A DNA stretch of 43,538 nucleotides. Source: Spirochaetales bacterium. GTDB lineage: Bacteria; Spirochaetota; Spirochaetia; JABEVK01. Numbering within the stretch: position 1 is the first letter of the stretch; every line of letters starts with the position of its first letter. The stretch covers positions 1 to 43,538 of the forward strand of contig JBAXAI010000031.1 of assembly GCA_037142615.1 (NCBI GenBank). The letters run 5' to 3'. Positions 10,987 through 35,011 of this stretch are shown here, in pieces. Below the pieces are notes generated by a model. The model saw nothing but the letters and a program-made list of their open reading frames with translations. It did no database searches and was not told where the DNA came from. Position numbers and translations under genes: made by a program.

Positions 10987-10988
10987 AG

Positions 10989-11391: not shown

Positions 11392-14108
<2,717 letters not shown>

Positions 14109-14112
<4 letters not shown>

Positions 14113-15152: not shown

Positions 15153-15179
15153 CTATTATTACCCGGGTATAATTAACCC
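15144..15179 (+). promoter_or_regulatory. Sigma70-type promoter with a palindrome, directly before the DUF2239 start
   Basis: TTGACT (15144-49) - 18 bp - TATAAT (15168-73) - 6 nt - ATG; palindrome TACCCGGGTA at 15160-15169. Confidence 0.75.
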
Positions 15180-17970: not shown

Positions 17971-18061
17971 GGCTGAGTTCCCCCACTGGCTTTGCATTCT
18001 AGGTTACCCGACGAAAGAAAACAAACTTTCCGAAATGCGGTATCAGGGTTAAGATGGGTTT

Positions 18062-20254
18062 ATGAAACTCCGAGCCAAGCTTTTTTTTGCCGGTGTGGTA
18101 CCCGCGCTTTTCACTTTGCTGCTCATCTTGGGCGTGGTTTATTCCCAGTCCCTGGCCTACGCCCGGAGCAACGCCGAGACCTTGGCGATCTCGCTCACCA
18201 AAGCCAACGGCCACATCGCGCAGAACATGATGGAACGGGCCGCCGAACTGGAGCGGTCACTGGCTCAGGTGGTGATCGACCGCAACTCGCTGATCCCCAA
18301 GGCCCAGCAGGCGGCGGCCATCGCCGCGCTGTACCGCAAGGCGCTGGAGCGCTCGGCGTGGATGTTCGGCGTGTGGCTCGTGCTCGAAAAGGGCAACGTG
18401 GCCCCCCAGGGCAGCGCGACCAAGAACCTGTTTGATCCCAAGGACCATTACTCGTTCTGGTGGCTGCGCCAGGGCAACGACATTTTGCTCGACAGCGGCA
18501 GCGACAACGGGACCGGCGATACCGGCGACTATTACAACCTCCCGCGCGACACGGGCAAAATGACGCTGATCAACCCCACCGAATATCCGCTGGCCAACGG
18601 GAACAAGGTGTTCAACGCTTCGTTATGCTACCCGATCTTCGACGGCAAAACCTTCCTCGGCGTCGTTGGCATTGACTTTGGAATGGATGGCCTTCAAAAG
18701 CTGACTTCGGGAGTTCATGAGTTTCGCAACGATTACTCCTTCATCATCGCCAACAACGGTACCCTTTCGGCGCATCCCCGGGCCGACGTCATCGGCAAAA
18801 AGTACGCCGACGTGCTGCCGGCACTCGAAGCCAAGTACAGCGTCACCGAGAAGATCCGTAAGGGTGAGCCCGTGCTGTACTACGACAAGTCGCTGAAGAC
18901 CGGGGTAGAATCGCTGGTCGTGATGCAGCCGTTCCGGGTCGAGGGCGTCGATCAGGCGTGGACCTTCGGCATGACCATTCCGCTGGTCGAAATCATGGAA
19001 CTTTCCAACCAGGTGCTGCTGACGCTGGTGGTATCCGTCCTCGCGGGACTGCTGCTGATCAGCATCACCACGTTCTTTTTGTCGAGCATGGTCACCCGTC
19101 CTGTGATCCGGTTGGCGCGTTCGCTTGCACAGATCGCGGATGGAAAGGGTGACCTCACGGTACGCCTCGCTACGACCTCGAAGGACGAGCTGGGCGACAT
19201 GGCGCGCAGTTTCAACGCGTTTGGCGACTCGCTGGGCCAACTTGTCCGCCGCATCAAGTTGCGCACAACAGACCTAAGGCACTCCGGCGACATTCTGATC
19301 GAGGCCATGGACACCACCACCGCCATCGTCGGCAGCCTCTTGGGGCGCGTGGGCGAAGTCAGCGGCTCGATCGACCAGCAGGAAGGCTCGTTTGGCCGCG
19401 TCGAAGAAACCACGCAGGCCCTTTTTCGCGCACTGGAGCAATTGAAAGACATCGTCGGCGAGCAGGTTTCGGCCGTCAACCAGTCGTCGGCGTCGATCGA
19501 GCAGATGGTGTCGAATATCCAGTCGGTCAACGCCAACACCGACCGCATCGGCGAAACGATGGCACACCTGGTGCAGGCCGCCGAAAAGGGCCACGCGGTG
19601 GTGACTGACCTCAACCAGCAAATCGACGGCATCGCGCAGGACTCCGAACTGCTGTTGCAGACCAACAAGGTGATCGCTACCATCGCCAGTCAAACCAACC
19701 TGCTGGCCATGAACGCCGCCATCGAAGCAGCCCACGCGGGCGAAGCCGGGCGAGGGTTTGCCGTGGTCGCCGACGAGATCCGCAAACTGGCCGAAAGCGC
19801 CAGCCGACAGTCGAAGGAAACCGCCAAGCAGCTCAAGGCCGTGCGCAACCGCATCACGCTGGTCGTGCAGGAGAACTCCGAGCTCGAAGGCTCGTTCGGC
19901 GAGATCGAGGGTTACATCCAGCGGGCCGACCAGCTGGTGCAAGAAGTGCGGCAGGCGATGAACGAACAGTCCATCGGGTCGGGCCAGATCCTCGAGGCCA
20001 TCCAGCACATCCACGAAATCAGCGGTCAGGTGAGCACCTCGACCGGGAGTCTGGAAGAATCGGGCAACACCATGAAACAGGAACTGGACGCCTTGGTGGC
20101 CGAAAGTCAGAACATCCGGGGTGCCATGCACTCGATGTCCGAACAGGGAGCCGAAATCAGCGCCAAGGTCGACCAGGTGTCGCAGCTCAGCCGCTCGAAC
20201 CAAACCAGCGCCGGCGAAGTCGCCACCGAAGTCGGCAGCTTCAAGACCGAGTAG
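18062..20254 (+). CDS. Methyl-accepting chemotaxis protein (dCache-HAMP-MA)
   Basis: Same architecture as the divergent MCP, with an identical signalling-tip motif. Confidence 0.93.
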   Translation: MKLRAKLFFAGVVPALFTLLLILGVVYSQSLAYARSNAETLAISLTKANGHIAQNMMERAAELERSLAQVVIDRNSLIPKAQQAAAIAALYRKALERSAWMFGVWLVLEKGNVAPQGSATKNLFDPKDHYSFWWLRQGNDILLDSGSDNGTGDTGDYYNLPRDTGKMTLINPTEYPLANGNKVFNASLCYPIFDGKTFLGVVGIDFGMDGLQKLTSGVHEFRNDYSFIIANNGTLSAHPRADVIGKKYADVLPALEAKYSVTEKIRKGEPVLYYDKSLKTGVESLVVMQPFRVEGVDQAWTFGMTIPLVEIMELSNQVLLTLVVSVLAGLLLISITTFFLSSMVTRPVIRLARSLAQIADGKGDLTVRLATTSKDELGDMARSFNAFGDSLGQLVRRIKLRTTDLRHSGDILIEAMDTTTAIVGSLLGRVGEVSGSIDQQEGSFGRVEETTQALFRALEQLKDIVGEQVSAVNQSSASIEQMVSNIQSVNANTDRIGETMAHLVQAAEKGHAVVTDLNQQIDGIAQDSELLLQTNKVIATIASQTNLLAMNAAIEAAHAGEAGRGFAVVADEIRKLAESASRQSKETAKQLKAVRNRITLVVQENSELEGSFGEIEGYIQRADQLVQEVRQAMNEQSIGSGQILEAIQHIHEISGQVSTSTGSLEESGNTMKQELDALVAESQNIRGAMHSMSEQGAEISAKVDQVSQLSRSNQTSAGEVATEVGSFKTE

Positions 20255-23173: not shown

Positions 23174-24108
23174 CTAGGTAGATGGCGCGGGTTCCAGCAG
23201 CACGGGGTCTACTTTGGCCATTCTCGCTGCCTCCTGGACTGAAAACCCTTCGGCAATCAGGTCGAGGGCCACTTCGACACGGCCCTCGACGCGACCCTCG
23301 ACACGGCCTTCTTCCCGACCTTCTTCCTTTCCTTCCGCCAAACCTTCTTGGCGCGCGTCGTAGCGGGCCTGATTCTGGTCGAGTTGCCACTTCCAGTGGG
23401 ACTCCCAGCGGGCCTTGGCATCGGCGTCCGAGGCAAAATAGTGGTAGCGGTCGTGGGCTTTCTGCAGGTCGTCGTCTTGGTGCAAGAGCACCTTCATGTC
23501 GAAACCCTCCTCGCCTTCGTGTTTCAGAAAGGCCATCCAGCGTTCGAGTTGCGGTCGGGAACCGATTCCGCCGCCAGTTTTGGCAGTTCCAGGTAGTGCA
23601 CCGTCAGGTGTTCGGACAGTCGCAGGTCAGGGTGCTGGTCGTGGGTCAAGTGAAACGTGTTGACCGGTCGAGGAATCTCGGGAAAAAGCACAAAGTTCAC
23701 GATGTTCACACCGACCACCGGTGTCAGCCTGGTGTACTGGTCTCCCGAGTCAATCTGGCCGGCGTAGACTCGTGCCCAATAGTAGAGCGTTCGTTCCTCG
23801 AAACCGGGATGGTTGCTCGCCTGCACCTCGACGTTGAGCTTAAGGCCCTTCTCGTCTTCGGCCAGCACATCCAGCACGGCGAGTTTGTCATCGTACGCGC
23901 GCTGAAGCAAGAAGGGGTTGCGCACCTTGACCGACCGCAACGGCTCGCGACCCTGGTAGTCCTGAAGAGCATTGAGAAACGACAGCAAATATTCGTTGTT
24001 CTCCTCGGCTCCGAAAAGCCACCGGATAAACAGGTCGGAATACCCCTTGATCCTCATGGGACGAGGGTAATTCCGGGACCGCTGGGGGTCAAGTGGGGAC
24101 TTAGGCAT
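23174..24108 (-). pseudogene. Rpn family recombination-promoting nuclease / PD-(D/E)XK putative transposase, split by a frameshift near 23545-23570
   Basis: SDLFIRWLFG, LDVLAED..NVEVQ, RTLYYWARVY, HYLELPK in one frame, then LERWMAFLK and the (R/K)EEG repeats in another; AGGAG RBS before ATG 24108. Could be a sequencing error. Confidence 0.8.
23275..23345 (-). repeat. 12-bp coding tandem repeats (EG-x-x) at the Rpn C-terminus
   Basis: EGLAEGKEEGREEGRVEGRVEGRVE; bounds approximate. Confidence 0.7.
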
Positions 24109-24183
24109 CAGGTGCTCCTGACGGTCAGACGGAGGTTGAGGCGAATCCGCTTGAGGAACGGCGGTCGCGTCACGGGAAAATTG

Positions 24184-24212
24184 TTGACAGATTAAGTAAG
24201 GCTTCGTAGGCT
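24184..24212 (+). promoter_or_regulatory. Sigma70-type promoter of lipoprotein cassette 1
   Basis: TTGACA (24184-89) - 17 bp - TAGGCT (24207-12); GGAG RBS 7 nt before GTG 24236. Confidence 0.72.
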
Positions 24213-24235
24213 GGAGGCCCCACTGGAGTAAAGTT

Positions 24236-24961
24236 GTGAAGATCCTATCGTTGAGTGCGTTGGCCGCGCTTGCTTTTCTGGCGGCGTGCACGTTGCCCCT
24301 CACCCCCCGAGCCGTCAGCGTTCAATTGGTTGTTGGCCAGGGAGCGCGGTACCTTTCGCCCGATCGAGATCGGCTCGAACTGGTTGGGGTTGGGCCTGAC
24401 GGTGCGGTGCTGGAACCGGTTCCGCTGGCCGAAGGCGAAAACAACGTCAGCGGCTTCGTCCTGGGCACCTGGACGCTCGAAGTGCGTGAGTACGATGCCG
24501 CCGACTCCTTGATCGGGCGAGGAATGGCCGTGACCGAGCTCGACTGGGGTACCAACGACGTTATCATCACCCTTGGCAGCCCGACCCAGCTGGAAATCAA
24601 GGGAGCCAACTTGTTATATCCGGAAGGCGGAGAGGTCATAGTCGCCGGGAATGTGTATGGCTCGACTGACTTAACTACTCCGCTCACTTCACCCGATTGC
24701 GTCCTTACAGATGGGCTACTACGGCCGTACCAAATACCCGGCTACGTGATTCAAGTCGAGGCAGCCACGGGGACCGACCTGAGCTACGCTTGGGTTCTCG
24801 ACGGCGAGCTCTTGACAGGCCAGACCGGGTCAATCTGTTCGCTAACCATGGGCTCTGGCTTCAGCGCTGGCGAACACCACCTCGTTTGCCTGCTCGCTGA
24901 CGGCAGTGGCTTGGTTTACTCGCAAGAAATCGTGATTCTCTCGATGGAGCAGCCCCAATGA
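24236..24961 (+). CDS. Lipoprotein A1 (short class: conserved N-terminal beta-sandwich + C-terminal Ig/PKD-like domain)
   Basis: Lipobox LAAC; GARYLSP; GPDG..GTWTLEV..YD; YAWVLDG..VYSQE, shared with A2 and A3. Confidence 0.8.
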   Translation: MKILSLSALAALAFLAACTLPLTPRAVSVQLVVGQGARYLSPDRDRLELVGVGPDGAVLEPVPLAEGENNVSGFVLGTWTLEVREYDAADSLIGRGMAVTELDWGTNDVIITLGSPTQLEIKGANLLYPEGGEVIVAGNVYGSTDLTTPLTSPDCVLTDGLLRPYQIPGYVIQVEAATGTDLSYAWVLDGELLTGQTGSICSLTMGSGFSAGEHHLVCLLADGSGLVYSQEIVILSMEQPQ

Positions 24962-27081
24962 CCTTCCTGAAATTCTGTACCGCCATGGTGGTTATCTCCA
25001 CGCTGGCCATCAGTTGTATCCTACCTCTCACATCGCCCTCGGCTGCCCAGGCAAAGGGGACGTTGGTCCTCCAGATCGAGGGCCTGAACTCAGCACGAAC
25101 CCTGGCGCCCAATCTGGGCAGCATCATCAACCACGTTACCGCCGAGTTCACCCCGACCGAAGGAAACACGGTCACGGCCAACTTCACCCGAGACCAGGGC
25201 AACGTTCCATTTTCGGTCACCTTGGCACCGGGAACCGATTGGATCGGAACTTTTGAGGCGTTCGACGACGCCGAGGCCCTGCTCGCGCGTGCTTCGCTCG
25301 AAGTGAAGGGAAGCGAGTTGGGCGAGACGGTTCTCGAGAAGCCTGTGATTCTCGTGCCTTCAACCAGTGGTACCGGTTCGTTCGATGTCGCCTTTCAGTT
25401 TGCGACGGGCGCCACTACCTTTGAGCTGACGTTTACCCGCTACCCCGACACCACCCCCACGTCGGCGAACGTCTACGCCGGTCTGCTGGCGGCGAGCTCT
25501 GCGACCACTCTTGTCGATCAGAAGGACCTCACTAGCGGTACCTACACCCTCGATCCGGCCACGGGCAAGGCTCGCGTCCAGGGTTCGCTCACCAGTGGAA
25601 ACTACGTGATCTCGCTGAAGGTCGATTCGGTGGTGTTTTCTAGTCTGTTGGCCGTTTACGACAATTTGTCTTCGACCGGCACGGTATCGAACCCGGTGCG
25701 GCATGTGTACTTCAACGGAGGCGTGGGTACCGGTTCCATTGCCGAGTTAGCGATACCGTACCTCGCCTCTGCAGTCCTTCCAGCCAACACGTTTTCTCGA
25801 CCGGGGTGGTCAGGAGAATGGACGGATTCCTCCACGCTGGTCGGTGGGAACACCTTTACTGGTGGTGACCAGTTTCAGATGACTTCGTCAACCGACGTGA
25901 CTCTTTATGCCGACTGGCAGGCAACGATCACCTTTGACCCTGGAAACGGTACGGGCCCCCAGTCGTCGCAGATCATCGGAGATGGGGACACCGTGCCGTT
26001 GACAACAATGAGCGGCCTGAGCCGCGTGGGATATAACTTTCTACGCTGGAACACCGCGTCTGATGGAACCGGCACTCCCTTTGAAGACGGAGCATCCTTC
26101 ACACCAGGTTCTGAGGGGAGCTTGACGCTCTATGCCCAATGGACTCTGGTCTACACGTTCACAAATGCCGGCGCGACGGGGCGTTATGGACCTACGCAAT
26201 CTCAAGTGACCAGTGCCTACTCGAGTACACCGCTCGCCGGAGAAGTGACGTCTACCACGAACAACGGGACCCCCGGAATCCAGAAATGGGTGGTTCCTAC
26301 GACGGGTACCTACCGCATCGAGGGTTACGGCGCACAGGGGGCGGTTTTCGACGCAACTTATGGGCGGGGAGCCCTCATGATGGGAGACTTTGCTCTGACT
26401 CAAGGTGACACACTGTGGATTCTCGTGGGACAGGAAGGCTCAGCGAATGGTCTAGAGTCGTATGGCCATGGCGGCGGTGGCGGCGGTACCTTTGTGGCTA
26501 TTGGCTCGGGCACGCTATCGACGACCACGCCACTTCTCGCTGCAGGTGGTGGGGGGGCTGCCGGCGACTATGGTGGCGATCAGTCAGCATCCAACGGCTC
26601 TGTAGCAACTGCCGGAAACAGCGGTCAAAACAATCCCCTAATGGTGCAGTCGGTCGGGCCGCCAATTGTCTACTACCCCTACAATGCGGCAAACAACGCT
26701 GGAGGAACCAGTGGTGGCGCTGGAGCAACCGGTGGACTCGGTTTCGACGACAACTCGGCGTCAGGACTCGATGCCGCTTCTGGCTGGTCGGGAAGTGGTT
26801 CATCATCACAGTCCTTCCTCAGTGGCGGCGCGGGTACCCTCTCTTACGGTTCTGGCGCAAATGGTGACGGTGGTTTTGGTGGTGGCGGTGGCTTAACAGT
26901 CTCGCCCTTCTACTCGTCAGCGGCGGGAGGGGGGGGGTATTCAGGCGGTGGTGGGTCTGACACCGTCAATGGCTCGACGCCGTACGGCGGCGGTGGTGGT
27001 TCGTACAATGCAGGTACCAACCAGTCCAACACGGCCGGGGCAAATGCGGGCATGGGCAAGGTGGTGATTTTCCTGAAGTAG
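24958..27081 (+). CDS. Lipoprotein B1: conserved N-terminal domains, 2 InlB-B (Listeria-Bacteroides) repeats, C-terminal ALK/LTK-like glycine-rich domain
   Basis: Lipobox AISC; SARTLAP; WNTASDGTG..LTLYAQW; FTNAGATGRYGPT, IQKWVVP..YRIEGYGAQG, LVGQEG, poly-Gly tracts; ATGA overlap with A1. Confidence 0.82.
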   Translation: MTFLKFCTAMVVISTLAISCILPLTSPSAAQAKGTLVLQIEGLNSARTLAPNLGSIINHVTAEFTPTEGNTVTANFTRDQGNVPFSVTLAPGTDWIGTFEAFDDAEALLARASLEVKGSELGETVLEKPVILVPSTSGTGSFDVAFQFATGATTFELTFTRYPDTTPTSANVYAGLLAASSATTLVDQKDLTSGTYTLDPATGKARVQGSLTSGNYVISLKVDSVVFSSLLAVYDNLSSTGTVSNPVRHVYFNGGVGTGSIAELAIPYLASAVLPANTFSRPGWSGEWTDSSTLVGGNTFTGGDQFQMTSSTDVTLYADWQATITFDPGNGTGPQSSQIIGDGDTVPLTTMSGLSRVGYNFLRWNTASDGTGTPFEDGASFTPGSEGSLTLYAQWTLVYTFTNAGATGRYGPTQSQVTSAYSSTPLAGEVTSTTNNGTPGIQKWVVPTTGTYRIEGYGAQGAVFDATYGRGALMMGDFALTQGDTLWILVGQEGSANGLESYGHGGGGGGTFVAIGSGTLSTTTPLLAAGGGGAAGDYGGDQSASNGSVATAGNSGQNNPLMVQSVGPPIVYYPYNAANNAGGTSGGAGATGGLGFDDNSASGLDAASGWSGSGSSSQSFLSGGAGTLSYGSGANGDGGFGGGGGLTVSPFYSSAAGGGGYSGGGGSDTVNGSTPYGGGGGSYNAGTNQSNTAGANAGMGKVVIFLK

Positions 27082-27212
27082 GTCGCCCACATTCTGGGTA
27101 CCAGCGACGCTGGACAGCCTCTGGGCTGGCCAATTGGTCGCTCTGTGAGTTGGTAGTCGCGAACCTTGCGCTCGCCTGACGCAGGGGGCTGAGGTTGGGC
27201 TATAACAGAAGG

Positions 27213-28961
27213 ATGAATGCACCGCTTTGGCTGGCTTTGGAACACAAACGGATTGCCCTGGGCGAGTCCGATCGCGTCTTTCTCCTTCGGACGGGGAAAA
27301 CCGTGGACCTGGATCCTACCGAGGCTGATGTGCTGGGCGCGCTGGCAACGGCCTGTACGCTTGAGCGACTGAGCGAGCGGCTCGTCGGTCAGGGCTGGGA
27401 GAAACCCGCCACCAGCGACCTTCAGGAAGTCCTCAACGCGTTGCAGGTCTTGGGCCTCGTGGTGCAGCCGGCGGAGGCCCTTGCGGTGCTGGTCCCGACA
27501 TCCGGCGGAAAGGACCGGTCGCCGGGTCTGGCAGCACTTTCGTGGCTGACCTGCGACCGACCGGCCCAACTCCAGGAAACGCTCGAGGCGTGGGCCGCCC
27601 AGGTGAAGGCTTCCGGAATGGAACCGCCGGAGTTCGTGATCAGCAACGACTCCCGCCAGGACGAGCGGGCAACACAACAAGTGGTCGAGAAGTTTGCGCT
27701 GTCTTATCCAGGACGCACACGGCATCTTGACCGCGAGTGGCGGAGACAACTGGTGGAACGCTTCCCGACGAGGCTTCAATCGTCTGTGAAGTTCGCCCTC
27801 GGTTTGTCTGACTTCGGGGTGGCCGAGCTTCCCTCGTATGGTGCGGCTTCAAACGCACTCCTCCTGGCGCTGGCGGGGCGCCAATTCACCTTGGGAGACG
27901 ATGACGTGCTGCCCCAGTTTCGTACCCGCAGGGATGCACACAGCGGACTCGCCTTCCAGTCACAGCTCGACAGCGCACGCATTCTACCGTTGGCAGGGCC
28001 GAGCGATGCGGTAGCCATAAGCCTCGCGAGCTCCCGGGCGCCGTTTGGTCCGCACGCAAGATACTTAGGTCGCGCGGTACCCAGCCTGTTGGCCGAAGAA
28101 GGTTTCGACGTCGAAGGCCTGTCTTCCCGCGACCTCGCCGGTGCATCCCTACCCCATGCGCGGGTGGCGGCCGTCATGTTCCACTATTGGGGTGACAGCG
28201 GGCTTAGCGATCACCGATTTCTCCTCCAACACCGCGAACTTGTGGATCCAACCACTTACCTTCCGCAGGAGTATCCCAAACTTCGCCAGACCCGTCAGGT
28301 CTTCCGTGCGCCGTTGGTCGACACGCTCGGCGGGCATACGGTATTGGGTGGACACTTGGCAATCGATGGAACGCAGTTGGTACCACCCTTTGCGCCGTAC
28401 GGCAGGAACCAGGACGGACTGTGGTCGGGGTTGCTGAGGTTCCTGCAGCCAGAGAGTTTCGTACTCAACCCGCGAGAAGCGATCCTGCATGCCCCACGGA
28501 GCGAGAGGAGCCTGACCGAACCTGGACACATAGAGGTCCTTCCCCGCATCAATGATGTCCTACTGGCCCTCCTGGCGCAACTTTCGGCCTCTGAGTCGAA
28601 CTTGGGGGTGAGCTACGCTCTGGCAGGGGCGTACCTAGAACACTGGGGCAACCGAAGCCCCGGGATAGTGCAAGCGTCCGTGGGTGAGTTGCACGCGCGC
28701 ACGACTTTGGCGCTGCACACAAGGCTCGAGGAACAGTTGGAGACTTACGGCGCCAAGCCCAAGCCTTGGGCAGAAGATGTGCATCGCGCCCTGGAACACC
28801 TGGAACGACAGCTGAGGTCAGCTCTGCCGTACTCCCCACAAGAGTTTCCCAGCTCGACCCAAGCCATCGGTACCTACGTCAGCAACTTCGGCAAGCTACT
28901 AGCGGTGTGGCCCGAGGTTTGGCAGGTAGCGGAAGCTAAAGGGGTTTGGTACCCTGCGTGA
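27213..28961 (+). CDS. Hypothetical protein: N-terminal PqqD/RRE-like winged helix fused to a GT-A-fold (DxD) glycosyltransferase-like domain
   Basis: N-terminal 3 strand + 3 helix pattern ending LNALQVLGLV; LTCDRPAQL..VISNDS..YGAASNALL..LGDDDV; GRNQDGLW; no signal peptide. Confidence 0.55.
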   Translation: MNAPLWLALEHKRIALGESDRVFLLRTGKTVDLDPTEADVLGALATACTLERLSERLVGQGWEKPATSDLQEVLNALQVLGLVVQPAEALAVLVPTSGGKDRSPGLAALSWLTCDRPAQLQETLEAWAAQVKASGMEPPEFVISNDSRQDERATQQVVEKFALSYPGRTRHLDREWRRQLVERFPTRLQSSVKFALGLSDFGVAELPSYGAASNALLLALAGRQFTLGDDDVLPQFRTRRDAHSGLAFQSQLDSARILPLAGPSDAVAISLASSRAPFGPHARYLGRAVPSLLAEEGFDVEGLSSRDLAGASLPHARVAAVMFHYWGDSGLSDHRFLLQHRELVDPTTYLPQEYPKLRQTRQVFRAPLVDTLGGHTVLGGHLAIDGTQLVPPFAPYGRNQDGLWSGLLRFLQPESFVLNPREAILHAPRSERSLTEPGHIEVLPRINDVLLALLAQLSASESNLGVSYALAGAYLEHWGNRSPGIVQASVGELHARTTLALHTRLEEQLETYGAKPKPWAEDVHRALEHLERQLRSALPYSPQEFPSSTQAIGTYVSNFGKLLAVWPEVWQVAEAKGVWYPA

Positions 28962-30048
28962 CGGTGATTGTGTAATTGCCACCGGCACCGTAGATGTTCT
29001 GGTCGTTGATCCAAAGGTAGTAGGTCCCGGCTTCCAAGTGCTGATTATAGATACCAAAGGAGCCAAAGTTCTGACCAGCACGATTATGCTCCGCAATCAC
29101 GACACCGTCGGCATCATAGACTAGGACTCCGGGGTAGTCGCCCATGAAGCTACCGCCGGATGAAATGCTGTAATCGTCACTTTGGGTAGCAGTGAACTTA
29201 TAGTAGCTGGACGCTCCCTTTGCAGGCAGGCTGGCCGCTACGGGTTGCGGCGAACCTTCTGGCGCGACCGCGATCTCCGTGGCTTGGTTGATGCCGTACA
29301 TCAAGCCTTGGTCCCGGATTTTCTTGGAGCTGACCAGCCCATCTGCGACCTGTACGATCTCGCTAGTGGTCTGCGGACTCGTCGAGATCCAGAACTCGTA
29401 GGTCCCGCTAGGCAATGTGACTCCTACGGTCGCCTGTTTGTGGGCGAAATCAGCGGAGTATTCCCAATGCTTAACCACCCAAGAACTCGTGGGATCGAAA
29501 GCACCGGTTGCGGGATCGGTGGTATAGAGAGGCAACACATCGTACTCATAGGCGGACGTTGCTCGCGCCAAAGACTTGGGTGGTGGAACGACAATTGGCC
29601 AAGGCAAAATAGTGATTTGCAGGGCCTCGCCATTGGCCGGATCTGCAACCCAGGCGATGTCGAGACTCACGGTGCCCGTGGCAACCTTGCCGGCCGAGAA
29701 GGCCACAGTGACAGAGTTGTCACCGGCAACCAGGGTGACGGACTGTTGCGCCTTGGCGACCTCTAGGTTCGCAGTATCAAAAGCAGTGGCATCCAAGTTC
29801 CAGGTTCCGGGCGACAGACCCAAAGTCTGATCTCCGGTCAAGCTATCGTAGGTAACGGCGGCACCTGACTCAGGAGTCAGAACGACCGAGTAGTGGTCGA
29901 TACTCAGCGACGGTAGCACCGTCCTTGCAGCGATTCCTGTGTGAATGTGCAGACTAGCCACGGTGGACGGCGCCTCCATTTGACAACTGGAAAGTGCCGA
30001 CAGCAGCAATAGGACTGCGAAAGGAACGATCATTTCTCGGACCTTCAT
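28936..30048 (-). CDS. Lipoprotein B3: conserved N-terminal domains + C-terminal PPC-like domain
   Basis: Lipobox LSSC; AARTVLP; GTWNLDATAFD; LPSGTY..EIVQVADG; YYKFTA..LEAGTYYL..GNYTITV; TGATG overlap with A3. Confidence 0.8.
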   Translation of the reverse strand: MKVREMIVPFAVLLLLSALSSCQMEAPSTVASLHIHTGIAARTVLPSLSIDHYSVVLTPESGAAVTYDSLTGDQTLGLSPGTWNLDATAFDTANLEVAKAQQSVTLVAGDNSVTVAFSAGKVATGTVSLDIAWVADPANGEALQITILPWPIVVPPPKSLARATSAYEYDVLPLYTTDPATGAFDPTSSWVVKHWEYSADFAHKQATVGVTLPSGTYEFWISTSPQTTSEIVQVADGLVSSKKIRDQGLMYGINQATEIAVAPEGSPQPVAASLPAKGASSYYKFTATQSDDYSISSGGSFMGDYPGVLVYDADGVVIAEHNRAGQNFGSFGIYNQHLEAGTYYLWINDQNIYGAGGNYTITVTQGTKPL

Positions 30049-30737
30049 CAGGAACCTCCCACTTCAATGAGAACTTCGTCGGAGTAGTAGTCTCCGTTCT
30101 TGCTGGCGACAATCTGGATCCGGTGGCGTCCGGATGAGTAGGCATTATAGGTGTACACATTAGGAGGCGCGGGTGTGGTCGGAGGGTACAAACCATCGAC
30201 AAACCACTGGTAGGTATCAAATCCGCTGGGGGCCGTCAGGACGACCGAACTGTTCATGAGCACAGAAAGGACATTATCAGGCGCTTCTGCCGGCGTCAGG
30301 GCCTGATCGGTTCCGGTCGCAACTGACACCGTTAAGTTCACATTGGTGAGCGTCGCGAGCGTGATGGTCACCGCATTCGCCTGCCCGGCTTCGAGCGTGG
30401 CATCCGCGCTGCCCGCCAGGATCTCGGTGCCAGCAGCATCGAAGCCGCTGACAACTATGGTCCAGTCGCCCGGCACCAGGTCGGTGACCGAGGCCTCCGC
30501 CGAATCGCTAGCGAGACTGGTTGGTCCAAAGGAGGCGCCATCGGGACCGTCGCCCTTGATGGACCAAGTGGACATCAGTGTCGGCAGCAACGTCTTGGCT
30601 GCAGTCGAACCCAGCCGAATCGAAAAGCCCGCCTTGTTGGAAAACGAACTAAGGGGCAACGTGCAAGCGGACAACAGAAGGACGGCAGCAGCGAACACCG
30701 AAGCTACCCCACCTCTCCATAACCGACGATTTTTCAC
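30048..30737 (-). CDS. Lipoprotein A3 (short class)
   Basis: GGAGGA RBS before GTG 30737; lipobox LSAC; AAKTLLP; GPDG..GDWTIVVSGFD; YQWFVDG..YYSDE. Confidence 0.8.
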   Translation of the reverse strand: MKNRRLWRGGVASVFAAAVLLLSACTLPLSSFSNKAGFSIRLGSTAAKTLLPTLMSTWSIKGDGPDGASFGPTSLASDSAEASVTDLVPGDWTIVVSGFDAAGTEILAGSADATLEAGQANAVTITLATLTNVNLTVSVATGTDQALTPAEAPDNVLSVLMNSSVVLTAPSGFDTYQWFVDGLYPPTTPAPPNVYTYNAYSSGRHRIQIVASKNGDYYSDEVLIEVGGS

Positions 30738-30760
30738 TGGGCAATCCTCCACTTTTCACT

Positions 30761-30789
30761 AATGTAGGATTGCCGAGTGGATTGGTCAA
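30761..30789 (-). promoter_or_regulatory. Sigma70-type promoter of lipoprotein cassette 3
   Basis: Minus strand TTGACC (30789-84) - 17 bp - TACATT (30766-61). Confidence 0.65.
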
Positions 30790-30800
30790 GGTTGAAGGTC

Positions 30801-33341
30801 TTACTGAGCAGTCAACACGATCGCTCCCGTCAGGTAAGAACTTGCCGAAAGAGCGTAGCCAAAGGTCGCGCCGGGGCTGAAGGTTGTAGCTTCGACGTAA
30901 TAGGTGTCCGTAGAGCTAACCAACGGGTTGGGAGCGGCCAGGGTCATCGTGATCATGGAGTCATATGTTCCTCCCGAATCGTCGTTGGCAGCAACTATAG
31001 TCCCCCCCCAACTGTCTTTGTACAAGAAGAGGTAGCTGTCAGATCCCGGTGCAACCATCGAGATCGTCACGGTTTGCGCGGCACTGATCGTGAACGAGTA
31101 CACATCTGCATACGAACCTGTGCGCCCCTTCGACATGTTGTCGGTAAGGGTGATTTGACCCGTGGCTGGGACACCAAAAGTGGCACGCAAGCTGACGGGT
31201 GATGAAGGCATAGTCAGAGTCGTCACGGCACTTCGAGTTCCCGCGACGTAGGCAGAGTCTCCTTGCCAATCGACAAAGGCATACGTGGACGCCGGCGTCG
31301 CCGTCAGGTGAATCACGGTTCCGGCAGGGAACTCTGTTCCCGCTTCCTGAACACTCACCGTTCCGTAGGACAAGTTGGTCGAAATGACGTTCAAGGCATA
31401 AACCGGCACCGCCACCCACTGAGCGTAGAGCGGGACATCAGCCGTTGCATTCGAGGCCATCGTGAAGCTTCCCGCGTTGCTGTAGGCGGTGCCGGAGCCA
31501 TCGGCTTGTGTGTTCCAGCCGGTAAAGACGGTGGCTCCCGAGGGTCCAGTCATATTGGAACCCAACGAAGGCAACGTGGTTGTCGAACCCTGGGCAAGTA
31601 CCAGCGGTGACAGGGAACCTGACCCCGTATTGGCATCGAATACGACTTGATACCGGTAGGTCCACCGTGCGTGCAAAGTGAAGTCGCCAGTTGAGTTAGC
31701 CGGCATGGTGAAGGTCGCCGCGTTGCTGTAGGTCGTGCCGCTCCCGTTGGCTTGGGTGTTCCAACTTGCAAAAAGTGAATAGGGCGCGGTCGAGGGGGGC
31801 GCGAGACCGCTGGACGACGGCAAGGTACCTGAGGTTCCAACTACCAGCGGAAGCGGAGTGAGATCGCCGCTCCCCCCGTTGGGGTCAAACAGGACGCGAT
31901 ACTGGTTGAGCCATTGGGCGTACAAGATCACGTCGCCCGTGGCATTCGAAGCCAAAGTATAATTGCCGGCATCGGCAATGGCCGTTCCCGAGCCATTGGC
32001 GGCGGTGTTCCACCCACCGAAAGCTGGGGCGCCCAACGGTCCCGACATATTGGAACCCAAGGAAGGAAGCGTCGTAGTCGCCCCGACGGCAACCGCTAGA
32101 GCAGTCAAGTTCCCCGTCCCCGTGTTGGCGCCAAAGTTCACTAAATAGCGGTAGGTCCACTTGGCGTACAAGACGACATCACCAGTCGCGTTGGACGGCA
32201 TGGTGAAGGTCGCGCCCTCGGCGTAGTTCGTCCCGTTGCCGTTTGCCAAGGTGTTCCACCCAGCGAAAAGCGACTGGGGTGCCGTCGAAGGCGGCAGCAG
32301 GCCGGTAGGAGGCGTCACGGTTCCGCTCGTCCCGACAGCAAGCGGCAGCGCGGCCACCGAACCGGTACCGAGGTTGGGGTTGAAGGTCACGTAGTACTGA
32401 TTGACCCACTGGGCATACAAGTTAACATCGCGGTCCGAAGTCATGCGGAACGTCGCCCCTACGCCGTAGGAAGTTCCTTTCCCATCCGCCTGGGTGTTCC
32501 ACCCGGCAAACGCCTGGCCGACCGGAGGGCTGAAACTCGCGTTGGGCAAGGCATCGGCGAAGTCAAACGGTAGTGGCAGGTCTGCCATCATACCTTCTCC
32601 GCCGTTGGCGTCGAAAAGCACGAGGAACGAAGGGCGCGAAAGGGCAATGCTGCTGGAGGCAAAATCGTAGACGTGGAGGATTTCGCTGTAGATTCCCAGC
32701 TGTGTATGGTCGTTGTTCGTCAAACGAAGCTGAACCAAGTAGGTACCGCTCTTGAGTTGACCTTCAAAGAGTGCGGTCTTGGCCTGACTGCTCAGTGAGT
32801 ACGTCATGGCCGTCATGCGTCCGGTCGCGTCAGCGAGCGGAGCAGTACCATCGAGTGCAACGTTGGCTATCGCGTCGGGCGAGGCTTGGGACAGGTCCTT
32901 GATCGGCCAGGGGGACAGGACGAAGTCGACCAGACTAGCGGCCTCGCTGAAGTTCAGGGCAATGGAAAACGCCCCTGAGGCCTCTTGGGTGGGAAGAACT
33001 CGGATCGTGACGTCATTGGCGCCCGACACAAGGGTCACTTTGGTGCTCCCCCGCCCGATCAGACGATCGACTGCGTCAAAAGCCGTCACTTCAACGGTCC
33101 ATTCGCCCTCGGCGACGGTGTAGGGCTGGCCTGCCATCACCGGACCCAGGTCAATGTTCTCGCTCCCGTTCACCAGCGTGGCCTGATAGTGTTCTGCGGC
33201 CGGAGCATTGGCCAGAATCGTGCGGGCCTGGGTGCGTGGAAGGTTGAGCGTGAGGGTGGTTCCCAAAAAGGACACAACGGGAGCGCACGACGTAAGAATC
33301 AGCAGGGCCGAAAACAAAGCGGCAAGACGGCGGGAGTTCAT
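30801..33341 (-). CDS. Lipoprotein B2: conserved N-terminal domains, 5 InlB-B repeats, one divergent InlB-B-type repeat, C-terminal PPC domain
   Basis: ATG 33341 overlaps the A2 stop (ATGA); lipobox LTSC; QARTILA; five F(D/N/G)xN..WNTxAxG.G..LxAxW repeats; DSYLFLY..ANDDSGG..YYVEAT. Confidence 0.85.
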   Translation of the reverse strand: MNSRRLAALFSALLILTSCAPVVSFLGTTLTLNLPRTQARTILANAPAAEHYQATLVNGSENIDLGPVMAGQPYTVAEGEWTVEVTAFDAVDRLIGRGSTKVTLVSGANDVTIRVLPTQEASGAFSIALNFSEAASLVDFVLSPWPIKDLSQASPDAIANVALDGTAPLADATGRMTAMTYSLSSQAKTALFEGQLKSGTYLVQLRLTNNDHTQLGIYSEILHVYDFASSSIALSRPSFLVLFDANGGEGMMADLPLPFDFADALPNASFSPPVGQAFAGWNTQADGKGTSYGVGATFRMTSDRDVNLYAQWVNQYYVTFNPNLGTGSVAALPLAVGTSGTVTPPTGLLPPSTAPQSLFAGWNTLANGNGTNYAEGATFTMPSNATGDVVLYAKWTYRYLVNFGANTGTGNLTALAVAVGATTTLPSLGSNMSGPLGAPAFGGWNTAANGSGTAIADAGNYTLASNATGDVILYAQWLNQYRVLFDPNGGSGDLTPLPLVVGTSGTLPSSSGLAPPSTAPYSLFASWNTQANGSGTTYSNAATFTMPANSTGDFTLHARWTYRYQVVFDANTGSGSLSPLVLAQGSTTTLPSLGSNMTGPSGATVFTGWNTQADGSGTAYSNAGSFTMASNATADVPLYAQWVAVPVYALNVISTNLSYGTVSVQEAGTEFPAGTVIHLTATPASTYAFVDWQGDSAYVAGTRSAVTTLTMPSSPVSLRATFGVPATGQITLTDNMSKGRTGSYADVYSFTISAAQTVTISMVAPGSDSYLFLYKDSWGGTIVAANDDSGGTYDSMITMTLAAPNPLVSSTDTYYVEATTFSPGATFGYALSASSYLTGAIVLTAQ

Positions 33342-34066
33342 TGTGGCCCCCTGAGGTCGGTCACCCACAAGTCTTGCGAATAGGTCAGGCCGTCCTTGGA
33401 AACGACAATCAGGATCTTCACGGTGGTCGAGGGGAGTGAGGAGGCGCCGGTACCCCACAGGACGCATTGGGCCTGCCCCGAAAGCTGGGCCTGCCAAACG
33501 CCGTCGAAGTACCACTCGTAGCTCTCGAGGCCCGAACTTGCATTGAGCGAGATCGTGGTATGGGCGCTTGGATCGAAGGTGACAATCTGGTTGAGCACCG
33601 GCAGGTCAGAACCGTCCGAGGAGTTTGTGACGCTGATCGCAGGGGCCGTCGGAAACCCGAAGTCAATGGTCACAGAAAGGGGGTTCGCAGGAGCAACCGT
33701 GATGCTGACGTCGTTGGTCGCGTCAGCCACGAGCGTTGCAACGGCCGTACCAGTCAAGACGATCCCGTTCTGGGAATCGAAGCCACTCACGGTGATCGTC
33801 CAGTCGCCTTCCGTCAAGCCCGGAATATGCGCTGTAGTTTGATCGCTGGCAAGGATTTGTTCGAACGAGGAAGACTCAGGGCCAAGGCCCGTAACGGTCC
33901 AACTGGCTAAGTCAGTCGCCACGAAGCGGGGACTGACGAAGGTGGAAGGCAGGGTCAAATGAACGGCAAGGCTACGGGTCACGACCGAACCTGGCATCAC
34001 GCACGAAAACGCCAGCAGCGAGATGGCGGTGACCAGCACCAGCAAAACCAGTTCAGTTCGTTTCAT
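33338..34066 (-). CDS. Lipoprotein A2 (short class)
   Basis: Lipobox AFSC; SPRFVA; GLGPE..GDWTITVSGFD; YEWYFDG..TYSQD. Confidence 0.8.
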   Translation of the reverse strand: MKRTELVLLVLVTAISLLAFSCVMPGSVVTRSLAVHLTLPSTFVSPRFVATDLASWTVTGLGPESSSFEQILASDQTTAHIPGLTEGDWTITVSGFDSQNGIVLTGTAVATLVADATNDVSITVAPANPLSVTIDFGFPTAPAISVTNSSDGSDLPVLNQIVTFDPSAHTTISLNASSGLESYEWYFDGVWQAQLSGQAQCVLWGTGASSLPSTTVKILIVVSKDGLTYSQDLWVTDLRGPQ

Positions 34067-34140
34067 CGGGAGCCCCCGAGGTTATTCACCTCTATAAACA
34101 TACGCCGAGCGGTGGCGTAAAGCCATAGGTGATTTGGCTT

Positions 34141-34455
34141 TCAGTGCGCCAGGAGCTCCCACCGCGCGTACAACACCGTATCGCCGCTGAGCAACATCTG
34201 GTCTTCGACATCGCGGCCGGTGCCGTCGGCACGGGTATTCCAGCCGGCAAAACGGTAGCCGTCACGAACCAAAAGGTTGTCTTGTTCCACGGGAGCAATG
34301 CGGTTGGGAAAGCCCTGAACCGCGCAAACCAACCCTGCACCCCCGTTGGGATCGTACGAGAGCGTGGGAGGAAGAGCAGTAGCCGGACCACACGAGGCCA
34401 GCAACAACGCGACGACAGCAGACGCAAGAGTCAATCCGACTCGAAGCACACGCAT
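34141..34455 (-). CDS. Small lipoprotein with a single InlB-B repeat
   Basis: GGAGG RBS; lipobox LASC; YDPNGG..RDGYRFAGWNTRADGTG..VLYARW; TATAAT on the minus strand at 34480-75. Confidence 0.78.
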   Translation of the reverse strand: MRVLRVGLTLASAVVALLLASCGPATALPPTLSYDPNGGAGLVCAVQGFPNRIAPVEQDNLLVRDGYRFAGWNTRADGTGRDVEDQMLLSGDTVLYARWELLAH

Positions 34456-34567
34456 GACGAACCTCCATATCATCATTATATCCATAATCTCTGTTTAATC
34501 TAGTTTCTCTACATCTTTTCTGTGGAAAATTCCAGCAATCGTTCCAGGGGCGAACTAGAATGACTCT

Positions 34568-35011
34568 ATGACCTTAGCGGCCAGAACCCTCAATTCGGTT
34601 CTCGACACCTTTCAGAAGAAGGAAGGCATTTGGAAGAGCACCGCGCGCGTTTCGTACTCCCAACTCTACAAGTCGCTTGAGAGCTCCACCGTGTGTTTCG
34701 CGGAATGGGATCCCGAACGAGGTCTGTACTATCTCGACTTTTCAGGCCTCGAAGATGATGCGGTCACCATCGACCTGTTGATGCTCGATTTTTCCGGCGT
34801 GCAGGGCAACGACCATTACCGGTTCGAACTGACCGCAGGGGGTCGTTTGGGCGGGGTTGAACTGCAAACTCACGTCGCGGGTCCTCTGCCCTTCCTTCCC
34901 GAGATCGGGGAATGGATCGAACCCGATTACGAGAACCGCTCACCGCCGCTGACGCTGGAGGCGTGGCAGAGCTACCTGGCCCAGTTGGTGCCCATGACAC
35001 CGCCGTTGTGA
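34568..35011 (+). CDS. Hypothetical protein
   Basis: 147-aa ORF with plausible composition; TAGAAT 6 nt before the ATG. Confidence 0.6.
   Translation: MTLAARTLNSVLDTFQKKEGIWKSTARVSYSQLYKSLESSTVCFAEWDPERGLYYLDFSGLEDDAVTIDLLMLDFSGVQGNDHYRFELTAGGRLGGVELQTHVAGPLPFLPEIGEWIEPDYENRSPPLTLEAWQSYLAQLVPMTPPL

What the first reader, a model, noticed from the sequence alone, without database searches (positions are those of the whole stretch)
24236..34066. Three repeats of a coupled two-lipoprotein cassette (short A + long modular B): candidate undescribed surface adhesin/fibre system
Seen: A1/B1 (24236-27081, +), A2/B2 (34066-30801, -) and A3/B3 (30737-28936, -). A always precedes B, with overlapping stop/start (ATGA, ATGA, TGATG) and B's RBS inside the end of A. 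All six share an N-terminal domain (G-x-W..(F/Y)D, mostly ending N-x-V-x-(I/V)). The A proteins (~230-240 aa) add GP(D/E) and a C-terminal Y-x-W-x-x-DG..YS(Q/D)(E/D) domain. The B proteins add a second shared domain (G-x-(F/V)..L-x-SG(T/N)Y..V-x-D..SS) followed by interchangeable tips: InlB-B repeats + Gly-rich, InlB-B repeats + PPC, or PPC alone. Inference: A is a dedicated anchor/adaptor and B the variable adhesin, made 1:1.
Basis: partly seen in the sequence, partly recalled or inferred. Interest (0 to 1): 0.85.

Follow-up and report, generated by a model that had tools for sequence, protein, structure and literature searches.

The report
Variable island of paired modular lipoproteins
A spirochaete genome carries a fast-changing 10-kb island of related lipid-anchored proteins, arranged as short-plus-long gene pairs that share one unnamed N-terminal domain and carry swappable binding tips; it is an uncharacterised family, but not clearly a new kind of machine.

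Summary
Three short-A/long-B lipoprotein gene pairs sit at the stated coordinates, each with a stop/start overlap (ATGA, ATGA, TGATG). All six share an N-terminal domain, the A proteins share a C-terminal domain, and the B proteins share a second domain.

- **For it:** in a syntenic Spirochaetales MAG (L001) an A gene again overlaps a B gene by ATGA. An A3+B3 co-fold gave weak support: 0.53, best control 0.00.
- **Against it:** A is not a special anchor. A and B each have their own lipobox.
- The shared N-domain heads a large family: 863 cluster representatives matched the A profile, and 128 of the best 150 carry the N-domain. These carry propellers, CBMs, peptidases or a GH8.
- A's C-domain is a PKD/BiPBP_C-like Ig module. 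In L001 it is fused to the ends of two B proteins, and one A there precedes three Bs.
- The island lies between flanks that are 73-92% identical in protein, while A and B counterparts are 34-45% identical.

Best reading: a hypervariable island of co-expressed, modular ligand-binding lipoproteins. A fibre is not shown.

The parts
24236..24961 (+). A1: 241-aa lipoprotein made of the shared N-terminal beta-sandwich domain plus a PKD/BiPBP_C-like C-terminal Ig domain
   Evidence: ORF. Lipobox LAAC. Paralogue of A2 and A3. No Pfam or NCBIfam family at E 0.01. BiPBP_C only at E 0.09. An 80% identical relative, P0003, exists.
24958..27081 (+). B1: 707-aa lipoprotein with N-domain, B-specific second domain, Flg_new repeat (residues 323-394, about 25924-26139) and an ALK/LTK-like TNF-like/glycine-rich tip (residues 395-707, about 26140-27078). 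Its start overlaps the A1 stop (ATGA).
   Evidence: Residues 396-495 align with ALK chains at E about 1e-15. Domain-2 HMM scores 126.6 bits.
27195..28961 (+). ORF588: a non-lipoprotein gene lying inside the island, absent from the L001 island. It looks like a possible PqqD-like N-terminus plus a GT-A/DUF6271-like body. It is probably not part of the A/B system.
   Evidence: No Pfam family at E 0.01. PqqD only at E 0.41. No PDB sequence match. Atlas structure rows: DUF6271 TM 0.51/0.65, GT2 families TM 0.42-0.48. Three relatives found, one carrying Peptidase_C39.
28936..30048 (-). B3: 370-aa lipoprotein with N-domain, B-specific second domain and an unassigned beta-rich tip (PPC-like by eye only). 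Its start shares one base with the A3 stop (TGATG).
   Evidence: AF2 model confident for two beta-sandwich domains, residues 31-150 and 194-245; the tip 248-370 has pLDDT below 50. PPC E 8.3, CHU_C E 0.0036, both below cut-off.
30048..30752 (-). A3: 234-aa lipoprotein (start 30752 GTG or 30737), N-domain plus PKD/BiPBP_C-like domain
   Evidence: AF2 model mean pLDDT 71.6, two beta-sandwiches. Foldseek gives generic tandem Ig/Fn3 matches. A promoter-like site at 30789-30761 lies upstream.
30801..33341 (-). B2: 846-aa lipoprotein with N-domain, second domain, five Flg_new repeats (246-nt DNA period), Flg_new_2 and PPC. Its start overlaps the A2 stop (ATGA).
   Evidence: Its C-terminal part is 45% identical to L001 B''.
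33338..34066 (-). A2: 242-aa lipoprotein, N-domain plus PKD/BiPBP_C-like domain. Counterpart of the L001 A gene (34% identity).
34141..34485 (-). C114: 114-aa lipoprotein consisting of a signal peptide, lipobox and one Flg_new repeat.
   Evidence: (Flg_new 34.7 bits). This exact sequence is not in the protein collection.
24121..34596 (.). Extent of the variable island between conserved flanks: Rpn/DUF4015 on one side, p147/p119/glyA on the other
   Evidence: blastn of L001 against the window. Collinear blocks end at window 24120 and 34597. Inside the island only one 228-nt stretch aligns.

Best explanation
The region is a hypervariable island of paralogous, modular lipoproteins in an environmental Spirochaetales genome.

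Each protein is made with a lipoprotein signal peptide and is anchored by its own acylated N-terminal Cys (inferred from the lipobox). Every protein starts with the same roughly 110-aa beta-sandwich domain. This domain has no Pfam or NCBIfam model and serves as a common N-terminal 'pedestal' for a large family of lipoproteins with many payloads.

A proteins are the shortest form: pedestal plus one PKD/BiPBP_C-like Ig domain. B proteins add a B-specific second beta-sandwich and non-enzymatic binding-type tips (InlB B-repeats, PPC, an ALK/LTK-like TNF-like/glycine-rich domain).

A and B are co-transcribed and translationally coupled, so they are made together. They may associate side by side, but each could also work alone.

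The set is remodelled by duplication, domain swapping and gene conversion among tandem copies. This gives strains different repertoires of ligand-binding, probably surface-displayed, proteins.

Shown: gene structure, homology, modularity, synteny and divergence. Inferred: lipidation, surface display, ligand binding and A-B association.
For: - **Lipobox and coupling:** lipobox in all seven ORFs; ATGA/TGATG overlaps with SD-like motifs.
- **Size of the family:** the A profile finds 863 cluster representatives at E<=1e-3. Of the best 150, 128 carry the N-domain and 124 have it at the N-terminus. The lipobox Cys aligns in 133 of 134 sequences.
- **Varied payloads:** Pfam was run on 100 of those 150. 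50 had no family at E<=1e-4. The rest showed RCC1, Kelch and lactonase propellers, CBM6/11/35, Peptidase_M28, Peptidase_C11, GH8, Laminin_G_3, LTD, Lcl_C, LRR and Flg_new. No listed best stretch covered the N-domain.
- **A's C-domain is a common module:** it matches repeats in proteins of 1200-6662 aa, and relatives carry BiPBP_C/PKD above cut-off.
- **Syntenic locus L001:** the order is A-B-B'-B''. B and B' end in the A-type C-domain.
- **Folds:** AF2 models show tandem beta-sandwiches.
- **Divergence:** flank proteins are 73.5-91.5% identical between the two genomes, against 34% (A2/L_A) and 45% (B2/L_B'').
- **Gene conversion:** a 300-nt tract at 93% identity joins L001 B and B', which are otherwise 59% identical in protein.
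- **Mosaic divergence in a related strain:** cluster look-ups suggest one contig holds B3 and ORF588 at 100%, B1 in the same 90% cluster, an A1 relative at 80% and an A2 relative at 40%. Shared contig is inferred from equal contig length.
Against: - No experiment, expression data or localisation is available. Spirochaete lipoproteins can be periplasmic.
- Only one related locus could be read, so conservation of the arrangement rests on two genomes plus contig-length inference.
- Retention of the overlap at 4 of 4 A-B junctions, and the weak co-fold pass (0.53 against 0.00), fit a tighter functional pairing than this reading needs.
- The B-specific second domain was found strongly only in the six B proteins of the two genomes. 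The B subfamily is therefore narrow and could have a special role.
- The ligands are unknown.
Confidence: 0.55

Rival explanations
1. One reading: each cassette is an obligate two-lipoprotein adhesin. A acts as a dedicated anchor or adaptor that holds or presents the variable B adhesin 1:1, possibly as a fibre.
For: - A precedes B with a stop/start overlap in 4 of 4 junctions in two genomes, despite 23-36% identity among copies.
- A and B N-domains form separate groups, so the pair is older than its copies.
- The A3+B3 co-fold gave weak support: 0.53 median (0.30, 0.53, 0.63), best of 3 controls 0.00, at least 50% contact agreement, partner pLDDT at least 67. By the tool's own calibration, passes at or below 0.60 are more often wrong than right unless likely beforehand.
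- In L001 the A-type C-domain is fused to B proteins, which can be read as a Rosetta-stone link.
Against: - B has its own lipobox, so it needs no anchor.
- The L001 locus has one A and three Bs.
- Both A domains are generic modules of a large family.
- A and B share a homologous domain and overlapping alignments, which may inflate a co-fold score.
- There are no fibre features.
Confidence: 0.2
2. A Spirochaetota counterpart of lipoprotein-derived (type V-like) pili. The subunits would be exported as lipoproteins and clipped after the conserved Arg/Lys that follows the first beta-strand. They would then polymerise by strand exchange, with one partner staying lipidated as the anchor.
For: - Foldseek matches for the B3 model include BT_0210 (4ecn, 1.6e-7), BF2867 (4h40), BACOVA_02677 (5cag), Mfa4 (5dhm), PG_0181 (4rdb) and Mfa2 (5nfi).
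- Lipoprotein precursors occur here in operons of several paralogues.
- An Arg is invariant in the six B proteins at residues about 36-48, in the loop after strand 1. R/K is present in 105 of 132 family members within a motif [AS][RK]T[IL]xP.
- FimA and Mfa1 are cleaved at Arg46 and Arg49, and anchors stay lipidated (PMC8512630, passages).
Against: - TM-scores are only 0.18-0.24, and the same list holds JAML, RAGE, antibodies and Gram-positive pilins. The signal may be no more than 'two tandem beta-sandwiches'.
- Pfam pilin-type hits are not significant: MfA4_C E 0.092, DUF4493 E 0.32.
- A profile search of PDB sequences found nothing better than E 0.72.
- The same N-domain heads peptidases and a glycoside hydrolase, which is not pilin-like.
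- A proteins mostly keep the R/K, unlike type V anchors.
- Type V pilins are reported only in Bacteroidia (PMC8512630).
Confidence: 0.06
3. There is no functional pairing. These are independent envelope lipoproteins, possibly periplasmic. The A-B alternation is a by-product of segmental duplication of a two-gene block in a recombination hot spot.
For: - The island shows gain and loss, an inversion and gene conversion.
- B-B' and B'-B'' in L001 are packed almost as tightly as A-B, with 7-nt gaps.
- Architectures are shuffled.
Against: - The overlap is kept in all four A-B junctions at low sequence identity.
- There is a weak co-fold pass.
- A and B types have stayed distinct.
Confidence: 0.17

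Closest known systems
Type V pilins and related Bacteroidales 'putative adhesin' lipoproteins (FimA/Mfa superfamily)
   Same: Both are lipoprotein precursors with tandem beta-sandwich domains, encoded in operons of several paralogues that include a short member. They supply many of the top Foldseek matches to the B3 model, though other tandem-Ig proteins rank among them. A basic residue follows the first strand.
   Different: There is no significant sequence or profile match and TM is at most 0.24. The phylum is different. Extra C-terminal modules are present. The N-domain also heads enzymes. Neither cleavage nor polymerisation has been shown.
InlB B-repeat (Flg_new, PF09479/TIGR02543) surface proteins
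   Same: B1, B2 and C114 carry Flg_new repeats above the curated cut-offs. Hundreds of 'InlB B-repeat-containing proteins' match this part.
   Different: Here the repeats are only the middle of a lipoprotein whose N-terminal two domains have no model. Those hits share nothing with the A/B N-part.
ALK/LTK extracellular TNF-like/glycine-rich domain (PF12810)
   Same: The B1 tip (residues 396-495) aligns with ALK chains at E about 1e-15, with clear non-glycine identity, and glycine runs follow in the same order.
   Different: This is a bacterial lipoprotein tip, not a receptor kinase. The Pfam model scores below its cut-off (12.2 against 24.5 bits).
Paralogous, recombining surface-lipoprotein families of Borrelia (Erp, Rev and others)
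   Same: Both are spirochaete lipoprotein gene families that diversify by recombination at variable loci (PMC10016077 and PMC11389397, search listing and abstract starts only).
   Different: No sequence relationship was tested or seen. Those families are plasmid- or prophage-borne in a host-associated pathogen, whereas this is a chromosomal slot in an environmental MAG lineage.

Membership tests
Bacterial lipoproteins (Lgt/LspA substrates) | N-terminal signal peptide ending in a lipobox with an invariant Cys | tested here: met
   All six A/B proteins and C114 have a hydrophobic N-terminus followed by [L/A/S/T]-x-[A/S]-C. The Cys aligns in 133 of 134 family members. Lipidation itself was not tested.
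Flg_new / List_Bact_rpt (PF09479, TIGR02543) | Score above the curated cut-off | tested here: met
   B1 43.8 bits, B2 89.5 bits (5 stretches) and C114 34.7 bits, against a cut-off of 27. TIGR02543 is also met. It is absent from A1-3 and B3.
PPC (PF04151) | Score above the curated cut-off | tested here: met
   Met for B2 only: 26.7 bits against a cut-off of 25.9.
PPC (PF04151), B3 tip | Score above the curated cut-off, or similarity to the B2 PPC | tested here: not met
   7.8 bits, E 8.3. B3 tip against B2 PPC gives E 2.0. AF2 pLDDT is below 50 for residues 248-370.
ALK/LTK glycine-rich domain (PF12810) | Homology to the TNF-like/glycine-rich supradomain | tested here: inconclusive
   The Pfam model is below cut-off (12.2 against 24.5 bits). 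phmmer against ALK and LTK chains gives E 1e-15 and 9e-12 over the non-glycine part. Homology is likely, but curated membership is not met.
BiPBP_C / PKD-like Ig domains (C-domain of A) | Score above the curated cut-off | tested here: not met
   12.0-13.6 bits against a cut-off of 26.8 in 3 of 3 A proteins, all over the same region. Proteins found with the A profile do carry BiPBP_C above cut-off, for example P0016 at 67.1 and P0086 at 83.8 bits. This is a distant relative of that fold class.
Type V pilins (FimA/Mfa) | Lipoprotein precursor | tested here: met
   Lipobox present.
Type V pilins (FimA/Mfa) | Sequence membership of a pilin family | tested here: not met
   MfA4_C E 0.092 and DUF4493 E 0.32. 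No such family appears among the 22 members scanned. The PDB profile search gave no pilin.
Type V pilins (FimA/Mfa) | Two-domain pilin fold | tested here: inconclusive
   Foldseek E 1e-7 to 5e-4 to Mfa4, Mfa2, PG_0181 and Bacteroides homologues, but TM 0.18-0.24 and many unrelated tandem-Ig hits. The model's mean pLDDT is 61.9.
Type V pilins (FimA/Mfa) | Protease cleavage at Arg/Lys after the first strand, and C-terminal donor strand | not testable with these tools
   A conserved R/K exists. Cleavage and strand exchange need experiments. The defining features are taken from PMC8512630 passages.

The most novel reading that the evidence does not exclude
The A/B cassettes are subunits of a lipoprotein-derived surface assembly in Spirochaetota. 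This would be either an obligate heteromeric adhesin held together through the homologous N-domains, or a type V-like filament. In either case the conserved [AS][RK]T[IL]xP motif after the first strand would be a processing or sorting site shared by the whole family that carries this N-domain.
Probability: 0.08. Interest if true: 0.85.

Novelty: new variant of a known kind. Interest (0 to 1): 0.42.

Why it matters
If the reading is right, the main value lies in the N-terminal domain rather than the pairing. It has no Pfam or NCBIfam model, yet the A profile matched 863 cluster representatives, and 128 of the best 150 carry this domain with very different payloads. It also carries a conserved motif just after the lipid anchor.

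That makes it a candidate general display or sorting module for spirochaete lipoproteins, whose surface targeting rules are poorly understood. The island also gives a compact example of how such repertoires diversify through duplication, tip swapping and gene conversion in a fixed chromosomal slot.

The A-B coupling is a testable hypothesis of heteromer formation. For now there is no evidence of a new kind of machine.

Tried and rejected
- **Word-based search with A2:** returned only itself among 5459 candidates. Uninformative; the exhaustive profile search was needed.
- **The search for related loci with a 10-sequence A alignment:** answered that the alignment had no sufficiently conserved stretch. 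Repeated with 3 closer sequences. 36 stretches matched and 3 were confirmed. Only L001 is a full-length relative. L002 and L003 (Bacteroidota) match only the Ig-like C-domain.
- **The search for homologous proteins with B2 residues 1-300:** my region included the first Flg_new repeat, so the 168 hits are InlB-repeat proteins covering about 20% of the query. It says nothing about the B N-part.
- **PDB sequence search with a B N-part profile:** best E 0.72.
- **Literature:** a search for 'TdpA' (from an Atlas row with PF27500) led nowhere. Searches for type V pili in spirochaetes (1 paper, not relevant) and for 'Listeria-Bacteroides repeat' with spirochetes (0 papers) gave nothing. A search on bacterial ALK-like domains gave nothing relevant.
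- **Rfam:** 0 matches at gathering score in the whole window.
- **Repeat scan:** no long near-identical repeats and no inverted repeats suggesting an invertible promoter. It found only the 5 x 246-nt period of the B2 repeats.
- **Promoter/terminator scan:** 6 promoter-like sites against 2.9 expected, 14 terminator-like against 10.7. Weak.
- **Complex prediction:** weak support only. No contacts were released, and no non-cognate control was possible.
- **Pfam PPC for B3:** rejected.
- **Not checked:** The gene neighbourhoods of the other A-like proteins (P0003-P0006, P0017, P0020, P0024) are therefore unread.

Full report
**1. What is in the sequence**

Between 24.2 and 34.5 kb the window holds seven lipoprotein-type ORFs and one unrelated ORF:

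| Gene | Coordinates | Strand | Length |
|---|---|---|---|
| A1 | 24236-24961 | + | 241 aa |
| B1 | 24958-27081 | + | 707 aa |
| ORF588 | 27195-28961 | + | 588 aa |
| B3 | 28936-30048 | - | 370 aa |
| A3 | 30048-30752 | - | 234 aa |
| B2 | 30801-33341 | - | 846 aa from the MNSRR start |
| A2 | 33338-34066 | - | 242 aa |
| C114 | 34141-34485 | - | 114 aa |

The three A-to-B junctions read ATGA, ATGA and TGATG. GGAG, AGGGGG and GGGAGG lie 5-8 nt upstream of the B starts, inside the A coding ends. All seven begin with a hydrophobic signal peptide ending in a lipobox Cys. G+C is about 57-63% across the region, like the rest of the window.

**2. Is the similarity real?**

Yes. Pairwise BLAST used a 7-sequence database with composition correction off.
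- A proteins are 23-31% identical to one another over their full length (E 2e-14 to 8e-29).
- B proteins are about 25% identical over the first roughly 250-620 residues (E 7e-9 to 3e-41).
- The six A-B pairs that involve B2 or B3 match over the N-terminal ~120 residues (E 1e-8 to 3e-5). The three pairs with B1 do not (E 0.012-0.47).

Because signal peptides could inflate this, I rebuilt profiles from mature sequences only.
- A B-only profile scores all 4 A proteins (3 from the window, 1 from L001) at 24-30 bits. The best of 800 shuffles scored 7.5 bits.
- An A-only profile scores B2, B3, L001 B and L001 B' at 25-40 bits. It misses B1 (5.1 bits) and L001 B'' (1.2 bits).

No other ORF of the window (371 stop-to-stop ORFs of 60 aa or more) belongs to the family.

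**3. Domains**

Pfam and NCBIfam give nothing for A1-A3, nor for the first ~290 residues of the B proteins.
- **B1:** one Flg_new repeat (43.8 bits).
- **B2:** five Flg_new repeats, one Flg_new_2 and a PPC domain just above cut-off (26.7 against 25.9 bits).
- **C114:** one Flg_new repeat.
- **B1 'Gly-rich' tip:** this is homologous to the TNF-like/glycine-rich ligand-binding domain of ALK and LTK. Residues 396-495 align with ALK chains at E about 1e-15, with many non-glycine identities, and the glycine runs follow in the same order.
- **B3 tip:** it could not be assigned. PPC scores E 8.3, CHU_C E 0.0036 (below cut-off), and B3 against the B2 PPC gives E 2.0.
- **C-domain of A:** it gives the same sub-threshold BiPBP_C match in 3 of 3 A proteins (E 0.06-0.2).

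AF2 models, built with my own shallow alignments of 22 and 11 rows, show two beta-sandwich domains in each protein.
- B3: mean pLDDT 61.9, confident for residues 31-150 and 194-245, tip below 50.
- A3: mean pLDDT 71.6.

**4. Relatives elsewhere**

An exhaustive profile search with the three A proteins found 863 cluster representatives at E<=1e-3, 74 at 1e-10 and 7 at 1e-30.

Among the best 150:
- Only a handful are A-like over their full length: P0003-P0006, P0017, P0020 and P0024, besides the window's own.
- 128 carry the N-domain, and 124 of those have it within the first 40 residues. In an alignment of 134 such sequences the lipobox Cys aligns in 133.
- The 22 without the N-domain match A's C-domain. 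They are mostly giant repeat proteins with up to 23 matched stretches.

Pfam was run on 100 of the 150, namely those of 1150 aa or less that fitted the residue limit.
- 50 had no family at E<=1e-4.
- The others joined the N-domain to RCC1, Kelch or lactonase propellers, CBM6/11/35, Peptidase_M28, Peptidase_C11, GH8, Laminin_G_3, LTD, Lcl_C, LRR, fn3, CHB_HEX_C_1 or Flg_new.
- No listed best stretch covered the N-domain itself.

The few named members are 'hypothetical protein' or domain-named proteins of Spirochaetes or Spirochaetales MAGs. The Atlas's nearest clusters are also mainly Spirochaetota.

The family shows G-x-W invariant and a motif [AS][RK]T[IL]xP in the loop after the first strand (R/K in 105 of 132, P in 118 of 131). 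The B-specific second domain was found strongly only in the six B proteins of the two genomes.

**5. A syntenic locus**

It has the same flanks in the same order: glyA, a 116-aa membrane protein, a 149-aa protein, then the island, then Rpn and DUF4015.

Between the flanks it has A (10001-10753), B (10750-12279, again an ATGA overlap), B' (12287-13573) and B'' (13581-15623). The gaps between the B genes are 7 nt.
- B (identical to P0009) and B' (identical to P0031) end in the A-type C-domain.
- B'' ends like B2, with Flg_new_2 plus a PPC-like part, 45% identical.

Flank proteins are 73.5-91.5% identical between the two genomes: glyA 91.5, p147 86.4, Rpn 81-83, DUF4015 81.2 and p119 73.5. A2 against L001 A is 34%. 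At the DNA level collinearity stops at window 24120 and 34597, and only one 228-nt stretch aligns inside.

A 300-nt tract at 93% identity links L001 B and B', which are otherwise 59% identical in protein. That is a mark of gene conversion.

Cluster look-ups point to a third, closely related strain. B3 and ORF588 (100%), a B1 cluster-mate (at least 90%), P0003 (80% to A1) and P0004 (40% to A2) all report a longest contig of the same length. That they share one contig is my inference.

**6. History**

I built a tree of N-domains with 57 rows: the 17 A/B-type sequences plus the first 40 other representatives by id. P0001, P0002, P0009, P0023 and P0031 were left out as duplicates or variants of window and L001 proteins.
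- The six B proteins form a clade (100/97).
- The three L001 B proteins are sister to B2.
- A2, P0004, P0005 and L001 A form a clade (98/97), and A3 pairs with P0006.
- A1 and P0003 sit on a long branch elsewhere, so their placement is unsure.

The A/B split therefore predates the cassette copies. The L001 lineage multiplied B without A.

**7. Fold comparison**

The A3 model matches generic tandem Ig/Fn3 pairs such as CbhA modules and SiiE.

The B3 model's matches include Bacteroidales lipoproteins of the type V pilin superfamily: BT_0210, BF2867, BACOVA_02677, Mfa4, PG_0181 and Mfa2, with E 1.6e-7 to 5e-4. TM-scores are only 0.18-0.24, and JAML, RAGE, antibodies and Gram-positive pilins are interleaved.

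Sequence-level tests for pilin membership fail. The defining steps of type V pili are lipoprotein precursor, Arg-specific cleavage at Arg46 or Arg49, strand exchange and a lipidated anchor that lacks the cleavage site. They have been reported only in Bacteroidia. These points come from passages of PMC8512630. The conserved R/K after strand 1 is a suggestive parallel and no more.

**8. Do A and B bind?**

One co-fold was possible: mature A3 with mature B3, using my own alignments. The verdict was weak support.
- Scores were 0.30, 0.53 and 0.63, median 0.53, against a best of 3 controls of 0.00.
- The runs agree in at least 50% of their contacts, and the partner's pLDDT is at least 67.
- In the tool's calibration the mark was reached by 116 of 157 solved complexes and 2 of 215 mismatched pairs. 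Scores at or under 0.60 were reached by only 18 of those solved complexes and by both passing mismatches.
- The two chains share a homologous domain, and no non-cognate or homodimer control could be run.

I treat this as a modest increase in the odds of association.

**9. Reading**

The simplest account is a recombining island of co-expressed, modular, non-enzymatic (binding-type) lipoproteins built on a family-wide N-terminal pedestal. A is the minimal member rather than a special adaptor.

The conserved A-to-B translational coupling keeps the pairing hypothesis alive at about 0.2. A type V-like assembly is a long shot at about 0.06. ORF588 is absent from L001's island and probably unrelated. 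It has a PqqD-like hint at E 0.41, a DUF6271/GT-A-like predicted fold, and a relative carrying Peptidase_C39.

**10. Novelty and limits**

No Pfam or NCBIfam model covers the N-domain or the B second domain. Every named relative is 'hypothetical' or named for another domain. My literature searches found no description. They cover open-access text only.

This is an undescribed variant of a familiar theme, the variable modular surface lipoprotein or adhesin, and not a demonstrably new system.

Limits:
- Only one related locus was read.
- The structural alignments are shallow.
- There are no expression or localisation data.

Noticed in passing
window 26140-27078 (B1 residues 395-707): A bacterial lipoprotein tip homologous to the TNF-like/glycine-rich ligand-binding domain of the ALK/LTK receptor kinases. 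PDB phmmer gives E about 1e-15, with many identities in the non-glycine part. The Pfam ALK_LTK_GRD model scores below its cut-off.
   Followed up: partly
window 27195-28961 (+): ORF588 sits inside the island but is absent from the L001 island. Its 3' end overlaps the B3 3' end by 26 nt, convergently. It has a weak PqqD-like N-terminus (E 0.41) and an Atlas model resembling DUF6271 and GT-A glycosyltransferases. One relative carries Peptidase_C39. It may be a RiPP-type peptide glycosyltransferase; no precursor peptide was looked for.
   Followed up: partly
window 23174-24303 (-): The Rpn/PDDEXK_2 putative transposase next to the island is split into two ORFs (259 aa and 120 aa, overlapping at 23524-23536). 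In L001 it is one 333-aa ORF. This is either a frameshift or a sequencing error.
   Followed up: partly
window 34141-34485 (-): C114 is a 114-aa lipoprotein made only of a signal peptide, a lipobox and one Flg_new repeat. It sits at the island edge upstream of A2, with a terminator-like hairpin (34119-34101) between them. It may be a remnant or a minimal member.
   Followed up: partly
N-domain of all six A/B proteins, for example B3 residues 41-46 (window about 29911-29928): A conserved motif [AS][RK]T[IL]xP lies in the loop after the first beta-strand across 134 family members (R/K in 105 of 132, P in 118 of 131). The Arg is invariant in the six B proteins. Its role is unknown: structural, processing or sorting.
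   Followed up: partly
L001 11393-11692 and 12927-13226: A 300-nt direct repeat at 93% identity joins the tandem paralogues B and B', which are otherwise 59% identical in protein. This indicates recent gene conversion across their Flg_new repeat.
   Followed up: yes
window 15766-17997 (-) and 18062-20254 (+): Two divergently oriented methyl-accepting chemotaxis protein genes lie upstream of the DUF4015 gene.
   Followed up: no
window 2731-3455 and 1-131, against L001 19704-20576: Sequence that lies just beyond the DUF4015 side of the island in L001 matches the far left end of the window at 82-85% DNA identity. The two genomes therefore differ by a rearrangement of about 17 kb on that side.
   Followed up: no
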